Assembly (NCBI GenBank): GCA_951406725.2
Contig: OX597842.1
Span: 20,026,001-20,090,000, forward strand
DNA length: 64,000 bases
Reading direction: 5' to 3'
DNA from: Octopus vulgaris
Taxonomy: Eukaryota
How positions within the stretch are numbered: the stretch's first letter is position 1; each line of letters begins with the position of its first letter. A program made the position numbers. Below, in pieces: positions 59,801 through 64,000 of the stretch.

Positions 59801-62800
59801 CCGAACGCATTCTGTAAGGCAAGGCGCCAACAATGGTAAGAACTTCACTGTGGCAAATGTCACAGGTGGAAGAAATGGTTCACACTTCATTTCCTATTCT
59901 TAAGGATTTTGTTCTTGTTGGCTACGGAAGCAGTGACCCTTTGATTATAATTGAAGATATTTATGCTAAAGCAATGGGTATACATATGCAAATGTACCCC
60001 ACCGACTTTGTTTCTTCATAACTTCTGGAAAAATGGGTATTTTTAAATGAAAATTTTGAGAAATACCTTTAAGAAAGTGTAGATTGCAATTATATTGGAA
60101 TAGCACACGTTGGTGGGACACCACACACACACATACACATCACATTCTTTTGCATTCTAAGATTCAGTCAAAATTTTCAAATTTGGAATATTCATGTAAT
60201 TTTCCATGCTGAATCTGCTACCGCTCACTTTTTCTGGACATAATTTTTTAAAAAGTGGACCTTTTCTGTTTGTGTTTTTCCCTTCAGCTCCTTCGGTTTC
60301 AAATTTATTGATTTCGAGTTTAGTGTATTGATGTAGTTTTGTCTGTTAATTATATAAATGAAATTAGTTGTTGTCCTAAGTTGATAAATATACAGTTAAT
60401 AGCTTTTAAGATTTTTAAACTCCCAGTAAAAGACGGAGCAGAGTTTTGGAAAAAATATTGCTAAAATATGGATATAATTTATTTAAAAAAACCAACTATG
60501 CCAATGCAGTCAGTGAAAGTCTTATTATCATCATCATCGCCACGTTCGGATGGTTTTCTTGTGTGCCACGTGCCACCGGCACTGGTACCACAAAGATACA
60601 AATTCCATTGATGTTCATCTATTTTGATTTGTTTTGATTTTCACTTGCCTCAACAGGTCTTCACAAGTGTCACAAGAAGGAAGGTATGCACAGGTGGACT
60701 GACTACGTCCCAGGTAGGGACCACGGGTTATGGCCTGACTAGTCTTGCCGGGTCTCTCGGATGGTGTTTTTTATGTGCCACCGACACAGGTGCTAGATGA
60801 GGCTAGCGAACGGCCACGATCGGATGGTGTTTGTCATGTGCCCACAGCACGGAGGCCAGTCGATGCGGTACTGGCTACGGCCACTTTCGGATGGTTTTCT
60901 CTTGTGTGCCACCGGCACTTTTACCACGAAGATACAAATTCCATTGATGTTCATCTATTTTGATTTGTTTTGATTTGATTTGATTTTCACTTGCCTCAAC
61001 AGGCCTTCACAAGTATCACAAGGAGGAAGGTATGCACAGGTGGACTGACTACGTCCCAGGTAGGGGCCATGGTTTATGGCCTGACTAGTCTTGCCGGGTC
61101 TTCGGATGGTGTTTTTATGTGCCACCGACACAGGTGCTAGATGAGGCTGGCGACGTCCCAGGTAGGGGCCATGGTTTATGGCCTGACTAGTCTTGCCGGG
61201 TCTTCGGATGGTGTTTTTATGTGCCACCGACACTGGTGCTAGATGAGGCTGGCGAACGGCCACGATTGGATGGTGTTTGTTGTGCCCACAGCACGATGGC
61301 CAGTGATGCGGTACTGACTACCGAATTATTTCTTCTTTCCAGACATCAGTTGAACCGTCCAACCCATGCTAGCATGGAAAGCAGATGCTAAACGATGATG
61401 ATGATGAAAAGAACACAAATTGTAGTGTTCTTATACTGATGTTTATTTTGTAAAATATTTATAGCCAAAGAAAGCGAGTCCGACAAGGATTGCAGCAAGG
61501 ATCAGTGAGCCAAAAATGATTCCGACAATCTCAAGTATACTGTAGGTTTTTGGTTTAGGAGGTTCAGGTTTCGGATCTGCAATTGACAAACAATAAAATA
61601 TATACCTTTTGTTTTTAATAAAAAATAGTAATATCTCCCAAGTTTGACCATTTTCATACTAAACTATTAAAAAATACTTTCGTTTCTGTTATACAAATTC
61701 CATTTCAAAGTGATCTAAAGGAAAAGTCCCCATCAAAATTTCCAGTAACACTATGTTGCACACATGAGCTTGGTTATATAAAGCCTTGTGAGTGGATTTG
61801 GTAGACGGAAACTGAAAGAAGCCCGTCGTATATATGATTATATATATGTGTGTCTGTTTGTCCCCCTAGCATTGCTTGACAACCGATGCTGGGGTGTCTA
61901 CGTCCCCGTTACTTAGCGGTTCAGCAAGAGAACCAATTTGGTAGATGGAAACTGAAAGAAGCCCGTCGTATATATGTGTGTGTTTGTGTGGCTGTTTGTC
62001 CTCCAAACATCGCTTGACAACCGTTGCTGGTTTGTCTACATCCCCGTTACTTAGTGGTTCGGCAAAAGAGAACTCATAGAATAAGTACAAAGAATAAATC
62101 CTGGGGTTGATTTGCTCGACTAAAGGCGGTGCTCCAGCATGGCCACAGTCAAATGACTGAAACAAGTAAAAAGAGAAAGATAATATAACCTCCACACACA
62201 CACACCTTGGTATTGACCCCCTCATCCTTTGCCCTTGTGGCAAATAAAAGAAACCCTTATATACAACTATCAACTGAGTCCATTGTGAAGATGGCCCCTC
62301 TACTTTCCTTCAACCAGGAAGGGCAACCAGTTTTTATCTGCTCAGGGCCCATGGCAAAAGGGATCATATAGTGGACATGTCTGAAAGGGCTGAAGACCAG
62401 CAACTGCCATTTTGTCAAAACCCTAATAAACTTTATCAGGTTTCACTTGAAGAGGAAAATCAGGGTGGAGAGGTAAGTGCTGGCTTCCAAGCAGTTTGTT
62501 GAAAGGTGGGTGAGAGAGGTGAGCATTACCTGAGTGAATGGGCCTTCTCTTAGAGTGTACCTGTATATTGGAGAGGAAAGACTGGGAGAGGGTATCCACC
62601 CTGGTGGTCAGGGAGACCTTGGATTTACTGGGCTTTCGTAACGCGTAGCCCTTGAAAGTCCCCCCACTATCAGGGATCTTACTTTGAATTTCTTTTATTC
62701 TTTGTATGACTTTTTACATGCTAAAACCCACACTGGACCCTCCCGAATGTTTTGCTTTGTGTTAGCCCTCTGTGGTCAATAAAGAAATTATTATAAATCA

Positions 62801-64000
62801 TTTCCTTACTCTTTATCTCCAAATTAATGTCTGCAGCTTTAAGGTTGTCATCATTAAATCTCCAAGTCAAACAATTCTCAGTTACGTTTCTGATCCAAAG
62901 CGTGGAGGTATCTCCACTATGTGTTACTTTATAGTCAGTGCCGTTAACGCATGTTCTGTCACATTCATATTTATAATTGTGGCACTTCCAAACCACCGGT
63001 CGTATCATGTTCGGTATTGTTATCGAAAGGGTGACGTTTCCATTGAGCACAGCAATTCCTGAAATAAAGAAATCAGTTAAGAAGTTTGCTTCCAAATCAT
63101 ACGGTCCTGGGTTCAGTCCCACTACACAGCACCTTGGGAAAGTGTCTTCTACTACAGCATCAACCTTGTGAGTGGATTTTCTAGATGGAAATTGAAAGAA
63201 GCCCATTGTATGTATATGTGTGTGTGTGTATGTGTGAGTGTGTGCGTGTGTATGTATGACTGGCAGTGTGAAGCGGCTGACCTCCCTTGTTCGAAGGTTA
63301 TAATGGACACAGTTTGTGTGTCAAATAGCTAGCTTGAGGCGATGGCCTCTTGGAACTAATCATCGACAGCTTTAGTCTTATATCTATAGGACTGCCATAT
63401 TAATATGGCGATAACAATTAATTTCCAGTAACGCTGCCGTAATCTCTTTTAGAGAGACTTAGTAATTTTAATATTTCTATATATATATATATATATATAT
63501 AAGAGCAACTTACCAAGGAATGTTATGCCGAGTCTTGCAGGGAAACGGAGCTACAGATAAATTTGAAGTAAAAACAGGAGTTCGACAGGGCTGTATCCTT
63601 ACTCCCTTTTTATTTCTATTAGTTATAGATTGGATTATGAAGGAAACTACGATTGAAAGCCAAACAAGCATTGAATGGACGGATGTGGAAGCTGTAGAAG
63701 ATCTCGACTTTGCAGATGATATAGCGCTGCTTTCATAAACATAGCCAAATGCAAAATAAAATATCAAAATTAGAAGCAATAGCTGCCAAAGTAGGATTGA
63801 AAGTCAACCTCAAATCAATAATTATGCACGTTAATGAAGTAAACATTGAATGTATTCAACTAGAAACTGGTGAACTGAAGGATGTAGCCGAGTTTATGTA
63901 TTCAGGTAGTAAGATAACGTTTTCAGGTGGCACCGACGAAGATATTAAGGTGAGAATAAGTAAGGCAAGGACCGTTTTCACCTGTTAAAGAAAGTATGGA

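What the first reader, a model, noticed from the sequence alone, without database searches (positions are those of the whole stretch)
61443..63058. Hidden family of small single Ig-like-domain membrane proteins (signal exon / Ig exon / TM exon)
Seen: three 249-nt phase-1/1 exons with identical splice signals and no stops. Copy C splices in frame to an exon 1.2 kb downstream that encodes a PKPEPPKPK stalk, a TM helix containing GIIFG (GxxxG) and a very short tail (KYFTK*). A matching signal-peptide exon lies at 10797-10842. The predicted product is ~143 aa. The domain has Ig-like Trp and strand D-E motifs but lacks the canonical D-x-G-x-Y-x-C, and instead keeps four invariant Cys (WKC, ECDxTC, E/NC). 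Copy C has N-x-T sequons (NVT, NGT, NVT) that copies A and B lack. Inference: a lineage-specific, clustered, diversifying cell-surface recognition family (immune, allorecognition, gamete or neural) that would need a partner to signal, because the tail is too short.
Basis: partly seen in the sequence, partly recalled or inferred. Interest (0 to 1): 0.82.

Follow-up and report, generated by a model that had tools for sequence, protein, structure and literature searches.

The report
Octopus tandem Ig-like cassette membrane proteins
The three repeated exons are real coding exons of an octopus-restricted family of cell-surface proteins built from divergent immunoglobulin-like domains; the family is already in public annotations as "uncharacterized" and is often multi-domain rather than single-domain.

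Summary
The three 249-nt phase-1/1 exons are real: C 63058-62810, B 6719-6471, A 292-44, all minus strand. So is the stalk/TM exon (61576-61443). Three corrections apply.

(1) The family is not hidden. Relatives are RefSeq/GenBank "uncharacterized" or "hypothetical" proteins of Octopus sinensis, O. vulgaris and O. bimaculoides. One O. vulgaris model carries a TM exon identical to the window's at all 43 residues.

Splicing the signal exon (10842-10797) directly to an Ig exon gives TGA; through the mini-exon it gives Cys.

(3) The signal exon heads a different gene (signal, mini, B, mini, A, then off the window). It lies 52 kb downstream of C, so the ~143-aa product is a chimera of two genes. 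Database relatives hold 1-6 domains, and their isoforms reuse identical cassettes in different combinations.

AlphaFold2 plus Foldseek support an I-set-like Ig fold (pLDDT 92.8; all 50 listed PDB hits are Ig domains). The canonical B-F disulfide is replaced by Ile/Phe, with two other Cys pairs. The function, cell-surface recognition, is inferred. No paper was found. This is a new variant of a known kind, of moderate interest.

The parts
62810..63058 (-). Ig-like domain exon, copy C (249 nt, phase 1/1; strands A'/B to G). It is the last Ig exon of the upstream gene.
   Evidence: AlphaFold2 model of its 82 residues: pLDDT 92.8, 7 strands. Foldseek PDB hits are Ig domains.
61577..62809 (-). Intron between exon C and the TM exon (gt...ag). 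It contains two SINE copies at about 61780-62069.
   Evidence: 62809-61936 is 95% identical to the intron downstream of exon B (830 matches, 41 mismatches).
61443..61576 (-). Terminal coding exon: Pro/Lys-rich stalk, TM helix (LEIVGIIFG...), 5-residue tail and stop codon (61445-61443).
   Evidence: Unique in the window. 43 of 43 residues identical to the C-terminus of O. vulgaris model P0052, and 42 of 43 to O. sinensis LOC115225115 X8/X16.
10797..10842 (-). Signal-peptide exon (ATG plus 14 codons plus 1 base T; gtaagt donor) of the second gene.
   Evidence: The same N-terminus (MAKWILFC...) heads database models P0013, P0050 and P0051.
9040..9078 (-). Mini-exon of cassette B (39 nt, phase 1/1; encodes LSRAKKYRITQS, predicted strand A).
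   Evidence: It matches the LSRAQKY[NK]ITQS segment before Ig domains in the database models.
6471..6719 (-). Ig-like domain exon, copy B.
   Evidence: 72 of 82 residues identical to domain D3 of O. sinensis LOC115225115.
3705..3743 (-). Mini-exon of cassette A (39 nt, phase 1/1; encodes FSSANIYKITQS).
   Evidence: The same 12 residues occur between domains in P0007, P0047, P0048, P0049 and P0013.
44..292 (-). Ig-like domain exon, copy A. The gene continues beyond the start of the window.
   Evidence: 76 of 82 residues identical to domain D4 of O. sinensis LOC115225115. It groups with D3, D4 and copy B in the domain tree (98/90).

Best explanation
The window holds parts of two neighbouring genes on the minus strand. 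Both belong to an Octopus-restricted, clustered family of type-I membrane glycoproteins.

The building block is a two-exon cassette. A 39-nt mini-exon encodes strand A, and a 249-nt exon encodes the rest of a divergent I-set-like Ig domain. Every exon is in phase 1/1, so any number of cassettes can be chained or skipped without breaking the frame.

Gene 1 enters the window with its last cassette exon (C). It ends in the stalk/TM/short-tail exon (61576-61443). Its upstream exons lie beyond base 64000, so its number of domains is unknown.

Gene 2 starts at the signal exon 10842-10797. It runs mini-exon B, Ig B, mini-exon A, Ig A, then leaves the window.

Within the domain, the canonical B-F disulfide is replaced by an Ile/Phe pair. 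The fold is probably stapled instead by C25-C62 (strand C to the start of F) and the invariant C32-x3-C36 loop.

Shown here: the exons, phases and junction codons; homology to annotated Octopus proteins; the predicted fold; and Cys covariation.

Inferred: that the proteins sit on the cell surface and act in recognition or adhesion; that isoform diversity arises from alternative signal exons and cassette choice; and that the 5-residue tail requires a partner for any signalling.
For: Exons and copies.

Mini-exons and junction codons:
- T+GT gives Cys via the mini-exon, against T+GA, a stop, by direct splice.
- A+GT gives Ser between Ig B and mini-exon A.
- G+GA gives Gly between mini-exon and Ig exon.
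- A+AT gives Asn between Ig C and the TM exon.
Each junction residue matches what database models show at those places.

Cassette A has no signal exon of its own. The A/B duplication (96% over 3.1 kb) ends 36 bp short of the signal exon.

Homologues:
- 4 of 4 candidates, 15 of 81 and 33 of 3972 pass the E-value cut-off. All named ones are Octopus.
- The profile search of 1.84 billion representatives gives 39 hits at E<=1e-3, 26 at <=1e-10 and 11 at <=1e-30.
- Relatives hold 1-6 domains. Isoforms reuse identical cassettes in different combinations.

Fold:
- pLDDT is 92.8 and pTM 0.82 for exon C. pLDDT is 90-97 over the domain of the full-length relative P0006.
- Foldseek against PDB gives 163 hits at E<=1e-3 for the P0006 model. 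All 50 listed hits for exon C are Ig domains: titin M1, obscurin Ig32 (TMq 0.71), titin I27, VL, CD2/CD58 and ZIG-8.
- The ESM Atlas neighbours are mollusc hypothetical proteins, then V-set/I-set clusters.

Residue pattern in 66 unique domains:
- W23 is present in 65, C32 in 66, C36 in 65, W65 in 64 and F67 in 63.
- C25 and C62 are both present in 36, both absent in 24 and discordant in 6.
Against: - No transcript data could be consulted. All splice junctions rest on sequence signals and on predicted database models, which may themselves be partly wrong. P0052 is fused to a histone, P0046 and P0027 to zinc-finger sequence, and P0007 and P0050 carry two mini-exons in a row.
- Pairwise dN/dS among A, B and C is 1.04-1.14. 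Decaying copies would show the same value.
- Pfam I-set is not reached by any single exon: no hit for C and B, and E 0.045 for A. It passes the gathering score only as a summed score in multi-domain relatives.
- The PDB sequence profile search gives nothing significant (best: CD2, E 0.66).
- Exon C has no close counterpart in the databases. Its best match is 66 of 82 residues, against 76 and 72 of 82 for A and B.
- The disulfide pairing is inferred from covariation among related sequences, not from model coordinates, which I could not read.
Confidence: 0.75

Rival explanations
1. Each copy is a separate small gene making a single-Ig protein (signal, one domain, TM). The multi-domain database models are read-through artefacts of gene prediction over tandem genes.
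For: - Single-domain models exist: P0003-P0006 at 126-142 aa, P0060 and P0063.
- The true part of O. vulgaris P0052 is signal, mini-exon, one domain, and a TM exon identical to the window's.
- Several long models are visibly artefactual.
- Exon C's own upstream exons are off the window, so a single-domain transcript for C is not excluded.
Against: - Cassette A has no signal exon and cassette B has no C-terminal exon. tblastn finds no TM or GPI-like exon between B and A, and the duplication excludes the signal exon.
- The B-to-A junction is in frame and reproduces the inter-domain linker seen in P0013, P0049 and P0051.
- Three-domain proteins have position-specific orthologues in all three species, which accidental fusions are unlikely to produce.
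- Even in this model the mini-exon is needed.
Confidence: 0.15
2. The window's copies are recent non-functional duplicates (pseudo-exons) of functional family members located elsewhere. They drift neutrally and are homogenised in patches by gene conversion.
For: - dN/dS is 1.04-1.14.
- C versus B differs by about 13-16% over the exon and 200 nt of its 5' flank, but only 3-5% over 700 nt of the 3' intron. That is a mosaic pattern rather than exon-limited selection.
- A lacks its own promoter and signal exon.
- C has no close annotated orthologue.
Against: - All three 82-codon frames are open, all splice signals are intact, and both mini-exons are intact.
- Every family-invariant core residue is kept: W23, C25, C32, C36, C62, W65 and F67.
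- A and B are 93% and 88% identical to cassettes included in RefSeq models of another species.
- The substitutions leave the 54 invariant positions untouched while the remaining positions vary.
Confidence: 0.1
3. The repeated unit is carried by, or derived from, a transposable element. The open frames would then be incidental.
For: The 140-180 nt directly upstream of each acceptor (for example 63078-63217) belong to a SINE family. That family has dozens of copies and two tandem arrays in the window.
Against: - The exon itself matches only the other two copies in the window, whereas the SINE part has 9 or more matches.
- The exon encodes a domain with E<=1e-30 matches to 11 representative proteins and a confident Ig fold.
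- No transposase or RT is associated with it. The RT remnant at 31982-33472 is unrelated.
Confidence: 0.02

Closest known systems
RefSeq/GenBank 'uncharacterized' Octopus proteins: O. sinensis LOC115225115, LOC115225116, LOC115225109, LOC115225458; O. bimaculoides LOC106883299; O. vulgaris hypothetical proteins
   Same: They share the 82-residue domain (66-76 of 82 identical), the mini-exon-encoded linker, the MAKWILFC-type signal peptide and the stalk/TM exon (43 of 43 identical in P0052). They also show the same interleaving with C2H2 zinc-finger sequence.
   Different: The window's cassettes are not identical to any of them. Exon C has no close counterpart (best 80-81%), so the window is another species, another haplotype or an unannotated part of the cluster. 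None of these proteins has a described function, a Pfam family of its own, or a paper in my searches.
I-set immunoglobulin domains (titin I27/M1, obscurin, twitchin; Pfam PF07679)
   Same: The predicted topology is the same: A-B-C-C'-D-E-F-G, about 95 residues with the mini-exon. The strand-C Trp and the 'L-x-I' strand E are present. The domain exon is in phase 1/1. TM-scores are about 0.7.
   Different: There are no B-strand or F-strand cysteines (Ile and Phe instead) and no D-x-G-x-Y-x-C motif. Extra C25-C62 and C-x3-C cysteines are present. Sequence similarity is below the Pfam threshold for a single domain.
Arrayed variable-exon recognition loci: arthropod Dscam1, chelicerate sDscam, vertebrate clustered protocadherins (recalled from memory; an sDscam Ig1 structure is Foldseek hit 50)
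   Same: These loci have tandem arrays of similar exons, several alternative 5' exons each with its own signal peptide, shared 3' exons encoding the membrane anchor, and many predicted isoforms from one locus.
   Different: Here the cassettes appear to be added in series (1-6 domains), not chosen one at a time. There are no FN3 or cadherin domains and no substantial cytoplasmic domain. Isoform usage is known only from gene models.
Small Ig receptors with short tails that signal through adaptors (for example TREM/NKp44-type with DAP12, or CD79/CD3 modules; recalled from memory)
   Same: They have one or a few Ig domains, a stalk, a single TM and a tail of a few residues. A polar or charged residue sits in or at the TM (Glu in LEIVG).
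   Different: No adaptor is known, and the charged residue is acidic and close to the outer boundary. This is an analogy of architecture only and was not tested.

Membership tests
Immunoglobulin superfamily, I-set-like domain | Two-sheet Greek-key beta-sandwich of 7-9 strands | tested here: met
   By prediction only. The AlphaFold2 model of exon C has pLDDT 92.8 and 7 strands, and P0006 has 8 strands including strand A. All 50 listed Foldseek PDB hits are Ig domains, with TMq up to 0.72.
Immunoglobulin superfamily, I-set-like domain | Conserved Trp in strand C | tested here: met
   W23 is present in 65 of 66 unique domains.
Immunoglobulin superfamily, I-set-like domain | Canonical disulfide between strand B and strand F cysteines, and the D-x-G-x-Y-x-C motif | tested here: not met
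   The B position is Ile in 53, Thr in 10, Val in 2 and Phe in 1 of 66 domains. The F position is Phe in 63 of 66. Some accepted Ig-like domains also lack this disulfide (recalled), so this weakens membership but does not exclude it.
Immunoglobulin superfamily, I-set-like domain | Match to Pfam I-set (PF07679) at the gathering score | tested here: inconclusive
   Single exons: none for C and B; A has E 0.045 and 14.3 bits against a 23.7 cut-off. Multi-domain relatives reach 31-36 bits as summed scores, with no single stretch passing. A distant relative, P0033, reaches 56.8 bits.
Immunoglobulin superfamily, I-set-like domain | Domain encoded by symmetric phase-1 exon(s) | tested here: met
   The mini-exon (39 nt) and the Ig exon (249 nt) are both phase 1/1.
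Octopus LOC115225115-like family (unnamed) | 82-residue domain with W-K-C, E-C-D-x-T-C, S-T-L-W-I and C-x-x-W-x-F, preceded by a Y-x-I-T-Q-S mini-exon | tested here: met
   Profile E-values reach down to 1e-174.
Octopus LOC115225115-like family (unnamed) | C-terminal stalk/TM exon (PKPEPPKPK...KYFTK) spliced after Asn | tested here: met
   43 of 43 residues identical to P0052 and 42 of 43 to P0007/P0048. This is shown for copy C only. A's downstream exon is off the window.
Dscam / sDscam | Ig plus FN3 ectodomain, with mutually exclusive choice among arrayed exons | tested here: not met
   No FN3 domain is found in any relative. Models show serial inclusion of cassettes, not exclusive choice. 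True splicing behaviour cannot be tested with these tools.
Molluscan FREPs (IgSF plus fibrinogen domain) | C-terminal fibrinogen-related domain | tested here: not met
   No fibrinogen domain appears in the Pfam scans of 8 relatives. Their C-termini are TM or short hydrophobic tails.

The most novel reading that the evidence does not exclude
The cluster is an octopus-specific isoform generator. It would be an array of in-frame two-exon Ig cassettes with several internal signal-peptide exons and shared anchor exons. From it, cells would assemble many different 1-6-domain surface proteins by promoter choice and cassette skipping. That would give cells a combinatorial surface code for neuronal or sucker self-recognition, or for immune recognition. 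It would have arisen independently of Dscam, sDscam and clustered protocadherins.
Probability: 0.15. Interest if true: 0.8.

Novelty: new variant of a known kind. Interest (0 to 1): 0.5.

Why it matters
Cephalopods have no known diversified immune or self-recognition receptors apart from their expanded protocadherins. This family is a lineage-restricted, clustered set of surface proteins. Its Ig domain has lost the canonical disulfide, and its exon design allows free chaining of domains. That makes it a concrete candidate for such a role. The family is annotated but has never been described, so a modest experiment (Iso-Seq plus tissue expression) could show whether the many predicted isoforms are real. 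It is also a clean example of how a missed 39-nt mini-exon turns an apparently good three-exon model into one with an in-frame stop.

Tried and rejected
(1) My own first model was signal exon, then Ig B, then Ig A by direct splicing. I rejected it because T+GA is a stop. The mini-exons found resolve this.

(2) Exon-limited positive selection. Exons differ more than introns overall:
- C-B: 37 of 249 exon sites against 82 of 1477 intron sites, Fisher p 1.2e-6.
- C-A: 37 of 249 against 34 of 650, p 6e-6.
- A-B mini-exon: 7 of 39 against 168 of 4141, p 0.001.
- A-B Ig exon: 15 of 249, not significant (all).
The binned profile shows that the divergent patch in C versus B also covers about 200 nt of the 5' flank. 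Other intron bins reach 9-13%. I therefore treat this as mosaic or gene-conversion-like history and not as proof of selection.

(3) Pfam on the single exons and the TM exon gave nothing significant. The PDB sequence profile search gave nothing significant.

I did not repeat it. Species names come instead. The 20-odd representative hits without names stay unplaced taxonomically.

(5) The tree of 66 domains shows no clustering by species: 26 label changes against a shuffled mean of 23.3. Species-specific concerted evolution is therefore not supported. Many forks are unresolved with only 81 columns.

(6) Literature. Two searches used 12 locus or accession identifiers and found 0 papers. Two topical searches (search listings only, no paper opened) showed nothing on this family.

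The paralogue census and the species of the window therefore stayed unchecked.
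Full report
**What is in the sequence**

On the minus strand the window holds three copies of a 249-nt open exon: C 63058-62810, B 6719-6471 and A 292-44. Their boundaries are identical...tttatttcag|GA and A|gtaagg.

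tblastn with the 82-residue translation of C finds only these three. Their E-values are 2.5e-54, 1.7e-37 and 7e-37, and the next hit has E 0.27. Of the 82 residues, 54 are invariant among the three, including four Cys.

Exon C is followed 1.2 kb downstream by the exon 61576-61443. Its acceptor is ttgcag, and the junction codon A+AT reads Asn. The exon encodes a Pro/Lys stalk, a hydrophobic helix, the tail KYFTK and a stop. This exon has no second copy in the window.

The signal exon at 10842-10797 is real: ATG, 14 more codons, one extra base T and a gtaagt donor. The Ig exons begin with GA, so a direct splice would read TGA.

tblastn with annotated relatives showed a small exon 2.3 kb upstream of each of B and A. 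Read on the sequence, these are 9078-9040 and 3743-3705. Each is 39 nt in phase 1/1, has a ttttacag acceptor and a G|gtaaat donor, and encodes LSRAKKYRITQS or FSSANIYKITQS.

With the mini-exon every junction codon makes sense: T+GT gives Cys, G+GA gives Gly, and A+GT gives Ser between Ig B and mini-exon A. These are the residues that database proteins show at the same places. In the model of a full-length relative, the mini-exon segment forms the first beta-strand of the domain.

**Two genes, not one**

Transcription runs from high to low coordinates. Exon C with its TM exon therefore lies upstream of the signal exon by 52 kb, not downstream. The interval holds two C2H2 zinc-finger ORFs, an RT remnant and SINE arrays.

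Self-comparison gives these matches:
- Unit A (1-5428) and unit B (6428-10761) are a tandem duplication, 96% identical over 3.1 kb of intron.
- That duplication stops 36 bp before the signal exon, so cassette A has no signal exon of its own.
- C's surroundings match B's: 61936-63258 matches 5576-6908 at 89.6%, and 63584-64000 matches 7806-8223 at 95.7%.
- No C-terminal exon of either known type lies between B and A.

The simplest reading is one gene: signal, mini B, Ig B, mini A, Ig A, continuing past the start of the window. C's own mini-exon and signal exon should lie beyond base 64000, so the number of domains in gene 1 cannot be told.

**Spliced models**

Full-length context comes from database proteins only.

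**Relatives**

The family is annotated but unnamed.
- (proteins of 45-144 aa) gave 4 hits from 4 candidates.
- (longer proteins) gave 15 hits from 81 candidates.
- (profile search) gave 33 hits from 3972 candidates.

Every named hit is an 'uncharacterized' or 'hypothetical' protein of Octopus sinensis, O. vulgaris or O. bimaculoides; one hit is unnamed. Most hits sit on one contig per species, which indicates a cluster.

A profile search without a word index over 1.84 billion representatives found 39 proteins at E<=1e-3. The top ~28 belong to the family. One weaker hit, P0033, is a five-repeat membrane protein with the same C-x3-C and S-T-L-x-I pattern, and it scores 56.8 bits on Pfam I-set. 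P0034, P0039 and P0045 are long repeat proteins carrying bacterial Ig-like or PKD domains, while P0041 (subtilase, FG-GAP) and P0042 (HYR-like) carry neither.

An HMM of the window's exon counts 1 to 6 domains per relative.

The O. sinensis isoforms reuse identical cassettes:

| Locus and isoform | Cassette order |
|---|---|
| LOC115225115 X4 | D1-D2-D3-D4-D5-other end |
| LOC115225115 X8 | D1-D3-D4-D6-TM |
| LOC115225115 X16 | D7-D3-D4-D6-TM |
| LOC115225109 | D7 with a short hydrophobic end |

LOC115225116 behaves likewise.

Window cassette A is 76 of 82 residues identical to D4, and B is 72 of 82 identical to D3. C's best match is 66 of 82. The TM exon is 43 of 43 identical to the end of O. 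vulgaris P0052.

Several models are visibly imperfect, with histone or zinc-finger fusions or doubled mini-exons. I could not see the transcript evidence behind any of them.

In a tree of 66 unique domains, species are fully interleaved and the three positions of three-domain proteins group across species. A and B group with D3 and D4 (98/90), while C is unresolved within a 33-member clade. The diversification therefore predates the split of these three species.

**Fold**

- Single exons get no significant Pfam match.
- Multi-domain relatives pass the I-set gathering score only as a sum.
- No solved structure is similar by sequence.
- AlphaFold2 with a 26-row alignment gives pLDDT 92.8 and pTM 0.82 for exon C (seven strands). 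It gives pLDDT 90-97 over the domain of P0006.
- Foldseek against the PDB returns only Ig domains among the 50 listed hits for exon C. These include titin M1, obscurin Ig32 and titin I27 at TMq about 0.7, VL, CD2/CD58 and ZIG-8. It returns 163 hits at E<=1e-3 for P0006, including shark vNAR, obscurin, titin and an sDscam Ig1.
- The ESM Atlas places the exon next to unnamed mollusc clusters and then V-set/I-set clusters.

Aligning the strand-E/F region by eye, the canonical F-strand Cys corresponds to F67 and the B-strand Cys to I12. Among 66 domains these are Phe in 63 and Ile, Thr, Val or Phe in all 66.

C32 and C36 are essentially invariant. C25 and C62 are present together in 36 domains, absent together in 24, and discordant in 6. 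This argues for a C25-C62 bond and a C32-C36 loop. The caveat is that related sequences share states by descent, and I could not read the model coordinates.

**Selection and history**

Pairwise dN/dS is 1.04-1.14. Exons differ more than the aligned introns overall. The binned profile, however, shows a divergent patch of roughly 450 nt covering exon C and its SINE-derived 5' flank, next to a 3-5% divergent 3' intron. Other intron bins vary as well.

This fits a mosaic or gene-conversion history. It is compatible with diversifying selection on surface residues but does not prove it. All core residues and splice signals are intact.

**Self-association test**

Two copies of the 82-residue exon-C domain gave a score of 0.37, against 0.01 for the best of 3 controls. 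The runs agree in at least 89% of contacts, and the partner's pLDDT is at least 84.

Calibration of the mark:
- In the microbial calibration it was reached by 21 of 30 proteins solved as pairs of one chain and by 0 of 23 solved as single chains.
- On eukaryotes it was reached by 17 of 29 (animals 7 of 16), but by only 1 of the 7 with no older solved relative, and by 0 of 30 single chains.

I give this pass little weight. Ig-domain dimers abound among solved structures. The predicted interface (residues 6-15 and 72-82) is formed by the edges of strands B and G. In the native protein those edges would be covered by the mini-exon-encoded strand A, which this construct lacks.

**Likely mode of action (inferred)**

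- The proteins are secretory-pathway type-I glycoproteins. C has three N-x-T sequons. A and B have one N-T-S sequon and an extra Cys.
- They display one to several Ig-like domains on a short Pro/Lys stalk.
- They are anchored by one helix with a conserved Glu and small-x3-small motifs, or, in some relatives, by a short hydrophobic end that could be a GPI signal.
- The tail of five residues cannot signal alone.
- Recognition or adhesion is the most probable role. The tissue and the ligand are unknown.

**Novelty**

The Ig superfamily and lineage-specific expansions of it are well known, and the genes are already in RefSeq. What is new is the description: a disulfide-shifted Ig domain, the two-exon cassette, and the chained and alternative use of cassettes.

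I found no paper. Identifier searches returned 0 papers, and the topical searches (listings only) showed nothing relevant. Supplementary tables, which might list these loci in expression or proteome data, were closed.

**Origin of the window**

All named relatives are Octopus, and nothing suggests human sequence.

Noticed in passing
window 40011-41873 (-) and 37248-38000 (-): There are two C2H2 zinc-finger ORFs of 620 and 250 aa, with an 84-bp finger period repeated about 27 times. They lie between the two Ig-cassette genes. Database models of the same cluster (P0027, P0046) are fused to zinc-finger sequence, so this interleaving seems conserved.
   Followed up: partly
window 31982-33472 (-): A 496-aa open frame has RVT_1 and zf-RVT matches. 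It is a LINE-type reverse-transcriptase remnant in the GC-rich stretch at 32-34 kb.
   Followed up: partly
window 48626-50445 and 54833-57083; also 63078-63217, 312-469, 6740-6899: A SINE family forms two tandem arrays (181 bp x10 and 173 bp x13, 96-97% matches). It also supplies the sequence directly upstream of the acceptor of all three Ig exons, so the SINE insertion predates the cassette duplications.
   Followed up: partly
window 6699-6697 and 272-270 (Cys codon in LNGCLTL of copies B and A): Copies A and B, and their O. sinensis counterparts D3 and D4, carry a fifth, unpaired Cys. Copy C and most relatives have an N-x-T sequon at that place. This could be an inter-chain disulfide site.
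   Followed up: no
window 62810-63258 versus 61936-62809 (compared with 5576-6908): Divergence between units C and B falls abruptly at the 3' end of the exon, from about 13-16% to about 3-5%. This suggests a recombination or gene-conversion boundary there.
   Followed up: partly
window 5443-5841 and 10762-11144: The A/B tandem duplication ends at a SINE copy. It omits the 383-bp segment that holds B's signal exon, which explains why cassette A has no promoter-proximal exon.
   Followed up: partly
window 58008-58652 (+): A 214-aa open frame has weak 'STLWLRNL'-like tblastn hits to the Ig exon (E 0.27-7.7) and overlaps a 140-bp tandem repeat. It has no Pfam match and is probably chance.
   Followed up: no
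database proteins P0017, P0022, P0023, P0028, P0031, P0037: One branch of the family carries a second, different Cys-rich domain (KPKIE...C.Y.V.A.CS.P...I.C...) after the Ig-like domain. Pfam gives only a weak C2-set-like match for it.
   Followed up: no
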